From Alphaproteobacteria bacterium (GTDB lineage: Bacteria > Pseudomonadota > Alphaproteobacteria > GCA-002720895): 49,135 nucleotides of DNA. The notes under the pieces are model-generated. The model saw only the letters and a program-made list of their open reading frames with translations. It was not told the DNA's origin and made no database searches. Made by a program: the position numbers and the translations under genes. This document shows positions 106 through 7,887 of this stretch, in pieces. The stretch covers positions 1 to 49,135 of the forward strand of contig JAKUPP010000004.1 of NCBI GenBank assembly GCA_022450705.1, in the 5' to 3' direction. Within the stretch, counting starts at the first letter, position 1. Each line of letters starts with the position of its first letter.

Positions 106-1245
106 ATGATATCTGCAAATTTTTTAATAAATCAATTATCTAAATATAAGTTTAATTTCTTTACAGGTGTCCCTTGCTCTCATTTAACTTCAGTAATTAA
201 TGGAGTTATAAACTCAAGAAAAATAAAATACATTGGTGCAACTAGTGAAGGAGAAGCAGTTGGAATTGCGTCGGGTGCTTGGTTAGCTGGAAAAAAAAGC
301 GTTGTTATGATACAAAACTCAGGTTTAGGTAATACAATTAACCCTTTAACATCTCTAAATCATACTTTTAAGATTCCAATTCTATTAATTACAACATGGA
401 GAGGTGAACCTAAAATAAATGATGAACCGCAACATGAATTAATGGGTAAAATTACAAGAAATATTCTTAGATTAATAAAAATTAAAAATGAAATATTCCC
501 AATAAAGGAAAATAATCTTAAAAAAGTGCTTCTTAAAATTAATAATTCAATAAATAAAACATCGCTACCTTATGCTTTGGTAATGAGAAAAGAAACTATT
601 AAAAAAGAAAAGTTAAAACAAAAAAAAATTCTTATTAAAAAAAAAAATAAAGCATTAATTTTTTATAAAAAAAATAAAATACCTTCTAGGTTTAAGGTTT
701 TAGAGAATTTAAATAAAAATATTGATAATAAAGTAGGAGTTATTGCAACAACAGGAAAGACTGGAAGAGAATTATTTAGTTTAAATGATTGTGAGAATTT
801 TTTTTATCAGGTTGGTTCTATGGGTTGTGCAAGTGCTATTTCTTTAGGTGTTGCACTAAATACAAAAAAAAAAATTATAGTATTAGATGGTGATGGTTCA
901 CTACTGATGAAAATGGGAAATATGTCAACAATTGGAGCTAATCAACCAAAGAACTTAATTCACATATTACTTGATAACAATGTTCATGATTCAACTGGTC
1001 AACAATTAACAAATGCTTCAAATGTAAATTTTGCTAATATTGCAATAAATTGTGGTTACAAAGAATCTTATTCTACAGATAACACAAATGATTTTTCAAA
1101 AATTATAAAAAATAAATTAAAAAATACAAATGGCCCAATTTTTATTCATATCAAAATTCAAAAAGGATCTGTTCAAAACTTAGGCAGACCTACAATACAT
1201 CCTAAAGATGTGGCTATAAGGTTTAAAAATTTTTTAAAAAATTAA
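106..1245 (+). CDS. aepY: Phosphonopyruvate decarboxylase (Ppd/AepY), TPP-dependent
   Basis: GVPCS, QNSGLGN, WRGEP..DEPQH, VGSMGCAS and TPP motif DGDGSLLM...NN; clustered with pepM. Confidence 0.93.
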   Translation: MISANFLINQLSKYKFNFFTGVPCSHLTSVINGVINSRKIKYIGATSEGEAVGIASGAWLAGKKSVVMIQNSGLGNTINPLTSLNHTFKIPILLITTWRGEPKINDEPQHELMGKITRNILRLIKIKNEIFPIKENNLKKVLLKINNSINKTSLPYALVMRKETIKKEKLKQKKILIKKKNKALIFYKKNKIPSRFKVLENLNKNIDNKVGVIATTGKTGRELFSLNDCENFFYQVGSMGCASAISLGVALNTKKKIIVLDGDGSLLMKMGNMSTIGANQPKNLIHILLDNNVHDSTGQQLTNASNVNFANIAINCGYKESYSTDNTNDFSKIIKNKLKNTNGPIFIHIKIQKGSVQNLGRPTIHPKDVAIRFKNFLKN

Positions 1246-1994
1246 ACTTTAAATTTATAATCTTTATTTGGATCTCTATCTATATCAGGTGGGTAGTTCT
1301 TATACTTATCATTATAATACTTTTCTCTAAAATTACCGTCAGCTAATTTGTTATATGTTAAATATAAAATTCTTCTTGATTTACTTGTTAGATTTGGTTC
1401 AGATCTATGTGGAGCATAACAATCAAAAAAGACAGCGTCTCCTGGTTTGGTTTCAATTGGAATAAATTTCATATTTTTCATATCTTCGTCTGATAACGGT
1501 TTCCATAGTTTTCCAATAAGACCAGATTTGTTATGACCTGGAGCAAATTCTAGGCATCCATTTTGTACCGTTGATTCATCAACGCTAACCATAGCAGTTA
1601 AATAAAATTTTGCATAATCATCCCAACCTGCTTGGGAGTCTTGATGCGGAGAAAAACCTGATCCTCCAGGCATTTTAAAATTAATTTTATCCTTAAATAA
1701 AACTCCCTCTTCTCCTAAACAATCATTTACACATTCCATAATTCTGCTTTTAGTACATAGCTCATGAAAACCTTTGTGAGATTTACAAAAATTTTCTATT
1801 CTTGCTAAAACTTTTTTATTTTCTTCAATCTCACTTTTTTCAAAATATTTCCATTCTTTTCCTGAAATTTCCGGAGAATTCTGTAGTTCTTCGGTATATT
1901 CTAAAATTTCTTTTATTTCAGAATTATTAAATAATCCTGGTACTAAAACAAAACCATCTGTTTTAAATTTTTTGATTTGATCATCATTTAACAT
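1242..1994 (-). CDS. PhyH-family Fe(II)/2-oxoglutarate dioxygenase, PhnY*-like phosphonate 1-hydroxylase
   Basis: FKDKINFKMPGGSGFSPHQD (HxD), distal His in APHRS and SRR 2OG-binding Arg; lies inside the phosphonate cluster. Substrate is inferred. Confidence 0.8.
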   Translation of the reverse strand: MLNDDQIKKFKTDGFVLVPGLFNNSEIKEILEYTEELQNSPEISGKEWKYFEKSEIEENKKVLARIENFCKSHKGFHELCTKSRIMECVNDCLGEEGVLFKDKINFKMPGGSGFSPHQDSQAGWDDYAKFYLTAMVSVDESTVQNGCLEFAPGHNKSGLIGKLWKPLSDEDMKNMKFIPIETKPGDAVFFDCYAPHRSEPNLTSKSRRILYLTYNKLADGNFREKYYNDKYKNYPPDIDRDPNKDYKFKV

Positions 1995-2015
1995 AAATTT
2001 ATTTTAATAAAAAAT

Positions 2016-5586: not shown

Positions 5587-5594
5587 TCTAAGTA

Positions 5595-7268
5595 ATGGCA
5601 ATAATACATGCAAAAGACATTGGTATTAGAAAAATATCTAAATCACAACTTTTAAAAAAAGAACTTAATAGTAAAGAACTATCATTTTTAATGGAAGCCC
5701 ATAATGGTTTGACTGCAAAAATAGTCGAGACAAGTGGTTTCAAAGGAATATGGGCGTCTGGATTATCTATATCAACTGCCCTTGGTGTAAGAGATAGTAA
5801 CGAAGCTTCATGGACACAAATATTGGATGTTTTAGAATTTATGTCTGATGCAACAACAATACCAATACTAGTTGATGGAGATACTGGTTATGGGAATTTT
5901 AACAATTTTAGAAGACTTGTTTCAAAACTATGTCAAAGAAAAATTGCTGGTGTCTGTATTGAAGATAAACAATATCCTAAATCAAATTCTTTTGTTAAAA
6001 AATATCAAAAATTAGCTGATATAGATGAATTTTGTGGAAAAATACAAGCGGGTAAAGACATGCAAGATGATGATAATTTCTCTATTGTTGCAAGAGTAGA
6101 GGCTTTAATAGCTGGTTGGGGAATTGGAGAAGCTATCAAAAGAGCAGAGGCATATTGTAAAGCTGGCGCTGATGCGATACTTATACATTCAAGCAAAGAT
6201 AATGCGAATGAAATATTAAAATTTAAAAAAGAATGGGGGAATAAATCTCCTGTAATTATTATTCCAACTACTTATCATAAAACTCCGACAAATATTTTTA
6301 AAAAAGCTGGTTTTTCTACTGTTATTTGGGCCAACCATTCTTTAAGAGCTTCAATTAAAGCAATTCAAGATGTAACAAATCATTTAATCAAAAAAGAAAG
6401 TATTAAAGGTTTGGAAAATAAAATATCAAGTTTAAATGAGGTTTTTGAATTAGCAGGAAATGATGAATTATATGAAGCTGAAAAAAAATACTTATTAGAA
6501 AAAAAGAATTATAATGCAATTGTTTTAGCTGCATCTAGAGGTCATCAACTTAAACATTTAACTAAAAACAAACCTAAATGTATGCTTGATATTCAAGGAA
6601 AACCTCTTTTAGAAAGACTAACTTCAACATTGAAAAAAGATAATATTGGGAAAATCTCAATAGTTTCTGGATACAAAAATAATGTAATTGAAAATAATAA
6701 TAATCTATCAAATCTAAATATTATTCAAAATAAAGATCATGCTAAAACTGGTGAGCTTTTCTCACTTAATAAATCTGCAGATGAAATAAAAGATGATTGT
6801 ATTGTAACCTATGGTGATATAGTTTTTAGAAAATATATTTTAGATGCATTATTATCTACTAAAGGAGAAATTGTAATAGTAGTTGATGCTCTTCTTAAAA
6901 ATAAAGGAAAAAAGTCCCAAAAAGATCTTGTGATTTGTGATAGAGAATTTACTGGAAACTATCTACTTGAATCTAAACCAGCAATTTTAAAATCGGTGCA
7001 TAATGAATTAAAGAAAAAAATTACTGGTCAATGGATTGGTTTATTAAAAACAAACTCAAAAGGATCAAAAATATTAAGAAATCAAATTCATGCTTTAAGT
7101 AAAAACAAAAACTTTAAAAATTTAGCAATGCCAGATTTATTTAATAATTTAATAAAAAATAAAATTAAAATTAATGTTCTTTATATAGCTGGGCAATGGT
7201 TGGATGTAAATGATGCTTTTGATTTAGCTGAAGCTAGAAAAGTATCTTGGGCAAAAAGCTTTAATTAG
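5595..7268 (+). CDS. pepM: Phosphoenolpyruvate mutase fused to a C-terminal nucleotidyltransferase domain
   Basis: Diagnostic EDK-x5-NS ([10 protein letters not shown]), MEAHNG, DGDTGYG, IWANH; C-terminal LAASRG..KPKCML, YGDI, WLDVN. Confidence 0.95.
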
Positions 7269-7887
7269 TTGACTTTACAAATCTTTTCAAATTATAAATA
7301 ACAAAAACAACTGAACCAATTGAAGCTATCAGAAAAAAGAAATTAATAAATCCAATCCAAGTAATTGGTCCAATTAAATATACGCCATCTTCTAATGCTA
7401 CTTTGTCTGTTTCTGGAAAACCATAAAAATCCTTACTAGTTCTAAATTTATGAATAATTCCTAAAAAAGTATTAAAAATAGATGCAATAATAGCTGAAAA
7501 TAATAAATAGTTCTGTAAATCGAAATCTACAATACTAAAAAACTTAATTTCAAAAGTTCCGGGCGGTATACCAGCTGAAATGCCGACAAACATCAATATA
7601 TATGTTGCGGTATCAACAAAACTATCATAATACCATCCAAATTTACTTTCTTTTTTTAACTCTCTTGCTAACTGCCCATCTACATGATCTAAAAATTTAG
7701 AAAAAATAAATAAAATAGACCCAATAACAGAAAAGACATATATACCAAAACTAAAAAATACAGCAGCTAATGCTGCTAACAAAAGACTAAATGTGGATAC
7801 TTGATTGGGAGTTATAGAAGTTTGTGCTATATATTTAACAACTTTTTCTGCAATCTTTTCATCTATCTTTTTTCTATATTTAAACAT
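7261..7887 (-). CDS. CDP-alcohol phosphotransferase family protein (complete motif)
   Basis: TPNQVS and [10 protein letters not shown]8-G-x3-D-x3-D. Confidence 0.88.

What the first reader, a model, noticed from the sequence alone, without database searches (positions are those of the whole stretch)
106..7887. Complete phosphonolipid-type biosynthetic locus in a streamlined AT-rich alphaproteobacterium
Seen: pepM (EDK-x5-NS) fused to an NTP transferase, ppd, AEP transaminase, a second cytidylyltransferase, two CDP-alcohol phosphotransferases and a UPF0104/LPG-synthase-TM protein. No glycosyltransferase lies in the locus. Established: PepM, Ppd and AepZ make 2-aminoethylphosphonate, and a cytidylyltransferase plus a CDP-alcohol phosphotransferase is Kennedy-type head-group transfer chemistry. 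Inference: the product is a C-P membrane lipid rather than a phosphonoglycan. The locus sits beside core genes with no visible mobility genes and a similar AT bias, suggesting long residence. Similar gene sets are known from other proteobacteria, so novelty lies in the host and the tailoring step.
Basis: partly seen in the sequence, partly recalled or inferred. Interest (0 to 1): 0.78.

Follow-up and report, generated by a model that had tools for sequence, protein, structure and literature searches.

The report
Phosphonate-lipid gene cluster, hopanoid-linked
A small marine bacterium carries eight genes that most likely build a carbon-phosphorus head group and attach it to a membrane lipid; the gene set is of a known but chemically unproven kind, here with an odd extra transferase and ties to hopanoid lipids.

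Summary
There is no glycosyltransferase, LicD or mobility gene.

It is a variant of the published 'Group 1 phosphonolipid / Burkholderiales_CDP-OH' seven-gene core, whose product has never been characterised (PMC8942020). The same eight genes sit at the same chromosomal site in four congeneric genomes.

It differs in three ways:
- The oxygenase is PhyH/PhnY*-like, not HalD-like.
- An extra CDP-OH paralogue, co-transcribed with PntC, lacks the fourth signature Asp (V98). It is conserved under purifying selection.
- The host is a roughly 1.2-Mb AT-rich marine alphaproteobacterium.

New context: this genus has a full hopanoid pathway. The cluster's membrane protein belongs to the hopanoid-associated HpnL family. 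In relatives the phosphonate genes are interleaved with hpnA, hpnN, hpnH and shc.

A lipid product is likely. The acceptor (glycerolipid or hopanoid) is open. Earlier agents of this scan noted the hopanoid link on other DNA.

The parts
1..51 (-). First 17 codons of a small acidic ORF that runs off the contig start. It is the flank, not part of the pathway.
   Evidence: Read directly. The homologous 59-aa ORF lies upstream of Ppd in G006 (L013:6024-6203).
106..1245 (+). Phosphonopyruvate decarboxylase (Ppd)
   Evidence: TIGR03297 424.3 bits against a cut-off of 312.5; TPP_enzyme_N and TPP_enzyme_C.
1242..1994 (-). PhyH-family 2OG/Fe(II) oxygenase, PhnY*-like. Proposed C1-hydroxylase of AEP.
   Evidence: PF05721 100.7 bits. 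NF052437 (phosphonate hydroxylase) 184.9 bits over residues 3-240, below the 500 cut-off. H117-x-D119...H196 and R207/R208 are present. dN/dS is 0.11.
2016..3131 (-). 2-aminoethylphosphonate:pyruvate aminotransferase (AEPT/PhnW-AepZ)
   Evidence: NF010006 451.5 against 296; TIGR02326 423.3 against 400.8; TIGR03301 417.3 against 360.8.
3205..4188 (+). HpnL-like, LPG_synthase_TM (flippase-like) membrane protein; TTG start
   Evidence: PF03706 109.8 bits. TIGR03476 HpnL 138.9 bits, below the 195.65 cut-off. It is the only HpnL-like gene in each of 5 of 5 genus genomes. Its counterparts in other clusters pass the HpnL cut-off. dN/dS is 0.07-0.09.
4183..4800 (-). CDP-alcohol phosphotransferase homologue no. 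1 (type b). It lacks the fourth signature Asp and overlaps the upstream PntC gene by 8 nt.
   Evidence: PF01066 57.6 bits. The motif D73..D76G..AR..G90...D94...V98 has V at the D4 position. dN/dS is 0.14-0.23.
4507..4584 (-). Signature-motif region of CDP-OH no. 1, with V98 at the D4 position (codon 4507-4509)
   Evidence: All five genus orthologues have V at this position.
4793..5518 (-). Stand-alone PntC-like cytidylyltransferase (NTP2)
   Evidence: PF12804 47.1 bits. The best solved relative is the T. denticola PntC-AEPT protein 6pd1/6pd2, E 1.9e-20, residues 2-239 against 4-238.
5595..7268 (+). PEP mutase (about residues 20-290) fused to an NTP_transf_3 domain (about residues 307-550)
   Evidence: TIGR02320 374.9 against 319.55; PF12804 35.1 bits. 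The fusion is conserved in 11 of 11 aligned homologues.
5961..5990 (+). PepM-specific EDKxxxxxNS motif (E123-S132)
   Evidence: The motif definition comes from PMC6697681.
7261..7887 (-). CDP-alcohol phosphotransferase homologue no. 2, with the full signature (D67, D70, G71, A74, R75, G84, D88, D92)
   Evidence: PF01066 47.1 bits. The best solved relative is AF2299 (4o6m), E 1.9e-11. Motif. dN/dS is 0.08-0.11.

Best explanation
The eight genes form one conserved biosynthetic locus for a phosphonate head group and its transfer to a membrane lipid.

Assigned by strong homology, above curated cut-offs:
- PepM turns PEP into phosphonopyruvate.
- Ppd decarboxylates that to phosphonoacetaldehyde.
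- AEPT transaminates that to 2-aminoethylphosphonate (AEP).

Inferred from family membership:
- The PhyH/PhnY*-like oxygenase hydroxylates C1, giving 1-hydroxy-2-AEP.
- The stand-alone PntC-like enzyme, and perhaps the divergent NTP domain fused to PepM, make the CMP-activated phosphonate.
- One or both CDP-alcohol-phosphotransferase homologues pass the phosphonyl group from CMP to a hydroxyl of a membrane lipid (Kennedy-type chemistry).
- The HpnL-like protein, of the MprF flippase-domain family, handles the product in the inner membrane.

The locus is a variant of the 'Group 1 phosphonolipid / Burkholderiales_CDP-OH' cluster. The acceptor lipid is not determined. It could be a glycerolipid such as diacylglycerol, or an extended hopanoid. 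The genus makes hopanoids, and the cluster family is tied to hopanoid genes by gene neighbourhood and by which genomes carry it.
For: Enzyme assignments: (scores above curated cut-offs for PepM, Ppd and AEPT). The EDKxxxxxNS motif. The oxygenase triad H117/D119/H196.

NTP2 resembles the experimentally characterised AEP cytidylyltransferase Tde-PntC over its full length (E 1.9e-20; activity in PMC6697681, passages).

The gene content matches the seven-gene core described in PMC8942020 section 13 and the Burkholderia/Nostoc cluster of PMC5987646 (passages). I re-found that core in Burkholderia lata (L070) and in an alphaproteobacterium (G026/L017).

Conservation:
- The fused PepM-NTP is in 5 of 7 other genus genomes and 8 of 10 family genomes.
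- The same eight genes lie beside the same flank in G004 and G006, and in G007 as far as its contig reaches (its contig starts inside the HpnL-like gene, so Ppd, the oxygenase and AEPT are not seen there). In G005 the order is rearranged.
- dN/dS is 0.07-0.23 for five of the genes.

Biosynthetic rather than catabolic: no PhnZ, PhnX or PhnJ in the 79%-complete genome.

Not glycan-directed: no glycosyltransferase in the locus and no LicD in the genome.

Not housekeeping: a third, ordinary CDP-OH gene lies on contig C27.

Fused proteins link the parts: CDP-OH + LPG_synthase_TM (P0147), CDP-OH + NTP_transf_3 (P0221), CDP-OH + 2OG oxygenase (P0185), CDP-OH + MMPL transporter (P0235).
Against: No phosphonolipid has been isolated from any organism with this cluster type (PMC8942020). 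My searches found no later report.

One transferase lacks the presumed catalytic Asp. D93N in M. tuberculosis PIP synthase is nearly dead (PMC4634129).

The oxygenase scores far below the phosphonate-hydroxylase cut-off (184.9 against 500). The HpnL-like protein is below its family cut-off (138.9 against 195.65).

The need for two NTP transferases is unexplained. The fused domain carries S-R-G-H-Q where the family signature is G-x-G-(T/S)-R.

For marine SAR11 and Prochlorococcus, published evidence points to phosphonoglycoproteins, not lipids (PMC8931226), though those clusters have a different gene content.

The genome is an incomplete MAG, and there is no expression evidence.
Confidence: 0.72

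Rival explanations
1. The activated phosphonate decorates a glycan or glycoprotein at the cell surface, as proposed for Prochlorococcus and SAR11. The CDP-OH homologues would transfer it to a lipid-carried sugar rather than to a bulk membrane lipid.
For: PMC8931226 (passages) reports phosphonates in high-molecular-weight membrane-anchored glycoproteins of Prochlorococcus, with glycan genes near pepM in two SAR11 isolates.
Against: The locus has no glycosyltransferase, Wzx, PglL or LicD, and the flanking genes are core housekeeping genes. No LicD was found in the genome (79% complete). None of the 25 related clusters that carry CDP-OH and/or HpnL was chosen for glycan genes; their recurring neighbours are hpnA, hpnN, hpnH and shc.
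Confidence: 0.1
2. The NTP-transferase and CDP-OH pair is a split IPCT/DIPPS-like system that makes a soluble phosphodiester or phosphonodiester solute, not a lipid.
For: The best NCBIfam match of NTP2 is the IPCT half of IPCT/DIPPS (84.3 bits). Both CDP-OH proteins hit the DIPPS half and archaetidylinositol-phosphate synthase. The solved relatives include 4mnd.
Against: All these scores are far below the cut-offs (84 against 580). No myo-inositol-1-phosphate synthase was found in the genome. NTP2 is closer to the AEP-specific PntC (76.7 bits) than to IPCT (37.7 and 35.6 bits). The pair is always embedded with PepM/Ppd/AEPT and an HpnL-like membrane protein, and the homologues are fused to a lipid transporter (P0235) or to LPG_synthase_TM (P0147).
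Confidence: 0.04
3. The locus degrades imported AEP, using PhnW plus a PhnY*-like oxygenase, rather than making it.
For: AEPT/PhnW is reversible. The oxygenase resembles a catabolic phosphonate hydroxylase.
Against: PepM with the mutase motif and Ppd are present and conserved. PhnZ, PhnX and PhnJ were not found. No phosphonate transporter lies in the locus.
Confidence: 0.02

Closest known systems
'Burkholderiales_CDP-OH' ppm gene-neighbourhood group, equated in Li & Horsman 2022 with Group 1 phosphonolipids of Yu et al. 2013 (PMC8942020). The Yu paper itself was not seen.
   Same: Both have a Ppm fused to a PF12804 NTP transferase, Ppd, AEPT, a second PntC-like NTP transferase, a 2OG/Fe(II) oxygenase, a CDP-alcohol phosphotransferase and an LPG_synthase_TM/HpnL membrane protein. 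The predicted head group is 1-hydroxy-AEP, and the product is uncharacterised. I re-derived the Burkholderia lata version.
   Different: - The oxygenase here is PhyH (PF05721). In B. lata it is HalD-like (PF23169).
- This locus has an extra CDP-OH paralogue without the fourth Asp. All 13 Burkholderiaceae, Nevskia and Steroidobacteraceae copies keep it.
- The genes alternate between strands, with three 3'-overlapping convergent pairs, instead of one co-directional operon.
- The host is an AT-rich marine alphaproteobacterium of roughly 1.2 Mb (0.99 Mb assembled at 79% completeness).
No publication was found.
   Same: The PepM-NTP is 56-58% identical in L016, L020 and L021, the closest relatives outside the family. 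They share the same PntC to D4-less CDP-OH gene pair and the same HpnL-like gene.
   Different: There, hpnA and hpnN (above TIGRFAM cut-offs), or shc and hpnH, lie inside the cluster. In the window's genus the hopanoid genes are on another contig.
Tde-PntC / Ari-PntC, AEP-specific cytidylyltransferases (Rice et al. 2019, PMC6697681; PDB 6PD1/6PD2)
   Same: NTP2 aligns over its full length (E 1.9e-20). It keeps R, the PK of the signature, and the Glu that matches Tde E196.
   Different: Asp replaces Tde E104, and K replaces the T/S of the signature. NTP2 is not fused to AEPT. Activity is untested.
Ceramide 1-hydroxy-2-aminoethylphosphonate of Bacteriovorax stolpii, as described in PMC8942020 section 13
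   Same: It is the only bacterial lipid cited there with a 1-hydroxy-AEP head group, the head group predicted here.
   Different: According to that paper its gene cluster belongs to a more distant family (GCF 761). No sphingolipid genes were looked for here.
HpnL (TIGR03476), an uncharacterised hopanoid-associated membrane protein (bioRxiv 10.1101/2025.07.29.667474, passages)
   Same: It is the best family match of ORF 3205-4188. The corresponding gene in other phosphonate clusters passes the HpnL cut-off.
   Different: The window's copy scores below the cut-off (138.9 against 195.65). The preprint does not mention phosphonates ('phosphon' occurs 0 times) and proposes amino-acid transfer to hopanoid polyols.

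Membership tests
Group 1 / Burkholderiales_CDP-OH phosphonate cluster | Ppm with the EDKxxxxxNS motif, fused to a PF12804 NTP transferase | tested here: met
   TIGR02320 375 bits against 319.55; motif at residues 123-132; PF12804 at 308-427.
Group 1 / Burkholderiales_CDP-OH phosphonate cluster | Ppd and AEPT are present, with no competing branch enzyme (RhiG, PhpC, PhnY aldehyde dehydrogenase) | tested here: met
   None of the eight ORFs matches HMGL-like, Fe-ADH or Aldedh.
Group 1 / Burkholderiales_CDP-OH phosphonate cluster | A second, stand-alone PntC-type NTP transferase | tested here: met
   ORF 4793-5518; 6pd1 E 1.9e-20.
Group 1 / Burkholderiales_CDP-OH phosphonate cluster | An alpha-ketoglutarate-dependent Fe(II) oxygenase | tested here: met
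   The PhyH-family protein has an intact H-x-D...H triad. It belongs to a different Pfam family from the HalD-like oxygenase of B. lata.
Group 1 / Burkholderiales_CDP-OH phosphonate cluster | Two phospholipid-biosynthesis-type genes: a CDP-OH transferase and an LPG_synthase_TM/HpnL protein | tested here: met
   PF01066 and PF03706. One additional CDP-OH gene is present.
Group 1 / Burkholderiales_CDP-OH phosphonate cluster | The product is a phosphonolipid | not testable with these tools
   Uncharacterised in every member (PMC8942020).
CDP-alcohol phosphotransferase (active enzyme), ORF 7261-7887 | Eight conserved signature residues, D1xxD2GxxAR...GxxxD3xxxD4 | tested here: met
   D67, D70, G71, A74, R75, G84, D88, D92.
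CDP-alcohol phosphotransferase (active enzyme), ORF 4183-4800 | Eight conserved signature residues, including D4, the presumed catalytic base and Mg-2 ligand | tested here: not met
   Seven of eight are present. V98 is at D4 in all five genus orthologues. The role of D4 comes from PMC4634129 and PMC6506517.
PntC (AEP cytidylyltransferase), ORF 4793-5518 | The GxG(T/S)Rx4-8PK signature and the two acidic residues at the AEP amine (Tde E104, E196) | tested here: inconclusive
   The signature reads G-I-G-K-R...P-K. E195 matches E196. D103 stands in place of E104.
PntC, fused domain of ORF 5595-7268 | The GxG(T/S)R signature | tested here: not met
   The domain reads S-R-G-H-Q aligned to G-L-G-T-R of LicC. 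The A-A-S-(R)-G stretch is conserved in 11 of 11 fused homologues. The PK is kept.
Phosphonate alpha-hydroxylase PhnY* type (NF052437) | Score above the curated cut-off | tested here: not met
   184.9 against 500, though the match is full length.
HpnL (TIGR03476) | Score above the curated cut-off | tested here: not met
   138.9 against 195.65. The gene in the same cluster position in L070, L061, L087 and L017 scores 285-372.
IPCT/DIPPS (NF041135) | Score above the cut-off, and an inositol-1-phosphate supply | tested here: not met
   84.3, 37.2 and 45.3 bits against 580. No Inos-1-P_synth was found in the genome.

The most novel reading that the evidence does not exclude
The cluster does not make a diacylglycerol phosphonolipid. 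It makes a hopanoid carrying a (1-hydroxy-)2-aminoethylphosphonate head group.

- HpnL is the long-unexplained hopanoid protein that handles this lipid.
- HpnN exports it to the outer membrane.
- The D4-less CDP-alcohol phosphotransferases are a distinct catalytic subclass adapted to the CMP-phosphonate donor or to an unusual acceptor.

If so, an abundant streamlined marine alphaproteobacterial lineage would be a source of a lipid class that has never been described, and of particulate marine C-P.
Probability: 0.33. Interest if true: 0.85.

Novelty: new variant of a known kind. Interest (0 to 1): 0.6.

Why it matters
Phosphonates make up about a quarter of marine dissolved organic phosphorus, and their producers and molecular forms are poorly known (PMC8931226, PMC9381506). 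The marine literature I could search discusses glycan- and protein-bound forms. 'Phosphonolipid' does not occur in either paper's main text.

This locus shows that a small-genome marine alphaproteobacterial lineage keeps the lipid-type cluster as a stable, selected trait. Homologues at 84-92% identity are common in metagenome-derived protein sets.

It also joins two open questions:
- What does the most common bacterial phosphonate cluster type make?
- What does the hopanoid-associated HpnL protein do?

Both become one testable hypothesis. The D4-less transferase subfamily contradicts the 'eight absolutely conserved residues' rule for CDP-alcohol phosphotransferases.

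Tried and rejected
- Complex prediction of the two CDP-OH paralogues, to test a heterodimer or pseudoenzyme-partner idea, gave no verdict (score 0.00). It says nothing either way.
- RNA evidence: no RNA holder was listed for 106-7887, so I did not lay reads.
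- Pseudoenzyme reading of CDP-OH no. 1, as a dead partner of no. 2. I weakened but did not exclude it. L020, L021 and G038/L114 have only D4-less copies in their clusters. A tandem fusion (P0123) has two D4-less halves.
- SHC co-occurrence as a discriminating test is only partly useful. SHC is also present, over the cut-off, in 16 of 27 genomes whose PepM-NTP locus has no CDP-OH or HpnL within 9 kb, so the contrast with cluster-bearing genomes is confounded by phylogeny.
- HpnL is not specific to phosphonate clusters. 7 of 12 HpnL-positive class-sample genomes have no strong PepM, and there HpnL sits in hopanoid clusters without CDP-OH or NTP genes. This weighs against HpnL requiring a phosphonate.
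- SAR11 identity of the host is not supported. The genus and family are small (7 + 3 other species genomes offered). The one named close relative found (76% identical PepM-NTP) is labelled 'Alphaproteobacteria bacterium MarineAlpha6_Bin2'.
- Two paper-reading runs failed on a too-short search term and were repeated. One family scan failed on a mis-framed reference and was repeated without it (75).

Full report
**What is there.** The window is the first 49,135 bases of contig C36 of a 0.99-Mb, 101-contig, 79%-complete genome. Between 106 and 7887 lie eight ORFs that fill the stretch almost without gaps.

By Pfam and NCBIfam they are:
- Ppd, 106-1245 (+): TIGR03297 424 bits, cut-off 312.5.
- A PhyH-family 2OG/Fe(II) oxygenase, 1242-1994 (-).
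- AEP aminotransferase, 2016-3131 (-): three equivalog models passed.
- An LPG_synthase_TM protein, 3205-4188 (+). Its best NCBIfam match is HpnL at 138.9 bits, cut-off 195.65.
- A CDP-OH_P_transf protein, 4183-4800 (-).
- An NTP_transf_3 protein, 4793-5518 (-).
- A PepM-NTP_transf_3 fusion, 5595-7268 (+): TIGR02320 375 bits, cut-off 319.55.
- A second CDP-OH_P_transf protein, 7261-7887 (-).

PepM carries E123-D-K-Q-Y-P-K-S-N-S132. This is the mutase-specific EDKxxxxxNS motif as defined in PMC6697681 (passages).

It omits the oxygenase. No ORF matches a glycosyltransferase.

**Boundaries, host and residence time.** The contig begins 105 bases before Ppd, inside a small minus-strand ORF.
- In congeneric genomes that 59-aa ORF is followed by DUF1097, bioB, yjeF, tig, clpP, clpX, lon and hupB.
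- On the other side lie an alpha/beta hydrolase, a POT transporter, nrdR and oxyR. Further on are glnB-glnA, a gcrA homologue, metE, propionyl-CoA carboxylase and the ribosomal-protein and rpoBC operons.
- There are no mobility genes, and the only tRNA is at 20.4 kb.

The fused PepM-NTP is found in 5 of the 7 other genus genomes. The two misses are 59% and 71% complete. It is found in 8 of 10 family genomes.

G004 and G006 carry the same eight genes in the same order beside the same flank. G007 shows the same arrangement as far as its contig reaches; its contig starts inside the HpnL-like gene, so Ppd, the oxygenase and AEPT are not seen there. G005 has all eight with an internal rearrangement. 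Pairwise dN/dS is 0.07-0.23 for the five genes tested.

A 76%-identical protein is labelled by NCBI as from 'Alphaproteobacteria bacterium MarineAlpha6_Bin2'. The host is therefore an AT-rich, small-genome marine alphaproteobacterium, but nothing identifies it as SAR11. The class-sample tallies below include one unpublished genome, G050, which was negative in all three searches.

**What kind of locus it is.** Li & Horsman (PMC8942020; section 13 read whole) describe the largest family of ppm neighbourhoods, 'Burkholderiales_CDP-OH'. They equate it with Group 1 phosphonolipids of Yu et al. 2013, a paper I did not see.

Its seven-gene core is Ppm fused to a PntC, Ppd, AEPT, an alpha-KG oxygenase, a second PntC and two phospholipid-type genes. 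[quoted passage not shown] A Nostoc paper draws the same cluster with hpnL (PMC5987646, passages).

I re-derived the core in Burkholderia lata (L070). It is co-directional: CDP-OH, HalD-like oxygenase, LPG_synthase_TM, NTP transferase, PepM-NTP, Ppd, AEPT. I also found it in an alphaproteobacterium (G026/L017). The window's locus is this kind.

The genome shows no PhnZ, PhnX or PhnJ, no LicD and no inositol-1-phosphate synthase, at 79% completeness. It has a separate housekeeping CDP-OH gene on C27. The locus is thus biosynthetic. It is not glycan-directed by any visible gene, and it is not the ordinary phospholipid pathway.

**How it differs.**

1. The oxygenase. It is PhyH (PF05721), with its best match a phosphonate alpha-hydroxylase model (184.9 bits, below the 500 cut-off) and an intact H117-x-D119...H196 triad. 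Burkholderia uses a HalD-like protein (PF23169). This looks like non-orthologous replacement within one pathway step.

2. The stand-alone NTP transferase. It is the closer relative of the characterised AEP cytidylyltransferase Tde-PntC (E 1.9e-20, full length). The fused domain is more remote (33 bits to 6pd1, 38 to LicC). It reads S-R-G-H-Q where the family signature is G-x-G-(T/S)-R, a variant shared by all 11 aligned fused homologues.

3. The two CDP-OH genes. ORF 7261-7887 has the full D..DG..AR........G...D...D signature. ORF 4183-4800, which overlaps the PntC gene by 8 nt on the same strand, reads D73..D76G..AR..G90...D94...V98.
   - The fourth Asp is described as one of eight absolutely conserved residues, a Mg-2 ligand and the presumed catalytic base. 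D93N nearly abolishes M. tuberculosis PIP synthase (PMC4634129, PMC6506517; passages).
   - The loss is not decay. All five genus orthologues have Val, and dN/dS is 0.14-0.23.
   - In a tree of 42 cluster-linked CDP-OH proteins, 14 lack D4. They fall into two groups: type b with V/A/S, and type c with G.
   - Type b lies directly downstream of the PntC gene in 9 of 10 loci.
   - Among the 150 best 50%-identity representatives of its homologues, out of 1.84 billion proteins, 61 of 139 complete motifs lack D4.
   - L020, L021 and G038 have only D4-less copies in their clusters. P0123 is a tandem of two D4-less domains.
   - The subfamily shares a conserved GFExED motif that might supply another acidic residue. 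This is a guess.

**The hopanoid connection.** Earlier agents of this scan had noted, on other DNA, that this cluster type lies in hopanoid gene clusters. I tested that here.

- *Pathway in the genus.* Squalene-hopene cyclase is present, over its cut-off, in 5 of 5 genus genomes searched and in the window's genome plus 9 of the 10 other family genomes. The genus locus encodes HpnC, HpnD, HpnE, SHC, HpnH, IspH, HpnA and HpnN. HpnG was not found in 5 of 5. The only HpnL-like gene in each of the five is the one in the phosphonate locus.
- *HpnL identity.* The corresponding gene of other phosphonate clusters is a bona fide HpnL: 285-372 bits against 195.65 in L017, L087, L061 and L070.
- *Distribution.* In the 50 class-sample genomes outside the family, SHC occurs in 15. 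HpnL-like genes occur in 12, all of them SHC-positive (0 of 35 SHC-negative). All 4 with a fused PepM-NTP are SHC-positive.
- *Physical linkage.* Of 82 non-genus PepM-NTP loci, 25 have a CDP-OH and/or HpnL gene within 9 kb. 10 of these 25 also hold hpnA, hpnN, hpnH or shc, against 3 of the other 57 (two further weak hits not counted). The hpnA and hpnN copies pass their TIGRFAM cut-offs.
- *Examples.* In L087 the order is hpnH, shc, hpnA, CDP-OH, hpnL, pntC, pepM, all on one strand. In G038 it is PhyH, hpnN, CDP-OH, hpnA, an ORF holding hpnL and CDP-OH together, pntC, hpnH.
- *Fusions.* CDP-OH is found fused to LPG_synthase_TM, to an MMPL transporter, to an NTP transferase and to a 2OG oxygenase.

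Against a strict link:
- SHC is also in 16 of 27 genomes whose PepM-NTP locus lacks CDP-OH and HpnL.
- None of the Burkholderiaceae clusters has hopanoid neighbours.
- 7 of 12 HpnL-positive genomes have no PepM, and there HpnL sits in hopanoid clusters without CDP-OH or NTP genes.
- SHC was found in 17 of 18 cluster-bearing genomes searched. Seven further Burkholderia loci were not searched.

In print I found no connection. The hopanoid preprint that discusses HpnL has no occurrence of 'phosphon' and calls HpnL's function unclear.

**Most likely mechanism.**
- Shown by homology above curated thresholds: PEP to phosphonopyruvate to phosphonoacetaldehyde to AEP.
- Inferred: C1 hydroxylation by the PhnY*-like oxygenase. 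The substrate could be free AEP, CMP-AEP or lipid-bound AEP. The CDP-OH-oxygenase fusion P0185 hints at a membrane-proximal step.
- Inferred: CMP activation by the PntC-like enzyme.
- Inferred: transfer of the phosphonyl group from CMP to a lipid hydroxyl by the CDP-OH homologues.
- Inferred: handling of the product by the flippase-like HpnL homologue.

I put about 0.72 on a lipid-anchored product, and split that roughly evenly between a glycerolipid and a hopanoid acceptor. Unexplained are the roles of the two NTP transferases, the D4-less transferase, and the absence of hpnG.

**Verdict.** It is a new variant of a known, chemically unproven cluster type in a new kind of host. Its value lies less in the host than in the conserved atypical transferase and in the hopanoid tie, which together make the product question experimentally sharp.

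Noticed in passing
G000:C15:3453-5303 (own genome, other contig); L108 = G004:C18:16000-35999: A roughly 1.2-Mb streamlined marine alphaproteobacterial genus keeps a full hopanoid module: HpnC, D, E, SHC, HpnH, IspH, HpnA, HpnN. HpnG was not found in 5 of 5 genomes (68-89% complete), so the fate of adenosylhopane is unclear.
   Followed up: partly
L070:7693-8982, L061:4691-5863, L087:7731-8978, L017:14660-15661: The LPG_synthase_TM gene of 'Group 1' phosphonate clusters is the TIGR03476 HpnL family (285-372 bits against a cut-off of 195.65). In the 50-genome class sample, HpnL-like genes occur only in SHC-positive genomes (12 of 12; 0 of 35 SHC-negative).
   Followed up: yes
P0123, P0147, P0185, P0221, P0235: Natural fusions of this CDP-OH subfamily exist with a second CDP-OH domain, LPG_synthase_TM, a HalD-like 2OG oxygenase, NTP_transf_3 and an MMPL (HpnN-like) transporter.
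   Followed up: partly
L013 (G006:C83) 11744-13414; L012 (G004:C11) 10445-11579: In G006 the PepM-NTP reading frame holds one in-frame TGA. In G004 Ppd is matched in two frames (a frameshift). Either may be an assembly error or a pseudogene in those MAGs.
   Followed up: no
window 1242-1245, 4183-4188, 7261-7268, 4793-4800: The locus alternates strands. Three convergent gene pairs overlap at their 3' ends by 4, 6 and 8 nt. The PntC and CDP-OH no. 1 genes overlap by 8 nt on the same strand. The divergent intergenic regions are only 73 and 76 nt long (3132-3204, 5519-5594).
   Followed up: no
window 8152-9021 and 9014-10342: An alpha/beta hydrolase gene and a POT-family peptide transporter gene overlap by 8 nt. 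They flank the locus in all genus copies. An unrelated Abhydrolase_3 gene lies inside the cluster of G027 (L016:8678-9808).
   Followed up: no
window 10355-10783 (-): A 142-aa ORF with no Pfam or NCBIfam match is conserved (64-72% identity) at the same place in G005, G006 and G007.
   Followed up: no
window 16228-16593 (-): A short GcrA-like cell-cycle regulator homologue (121 aa; only the N-terminal 50 residues match the 155-position model).
   Followed up: no
L108:6309-6995 and 7005-7649 (-): Two ORFs (228 and 214 aa) with no family match lie directly beside hpnC in the genus hopanoid locus.
   Followed up: no
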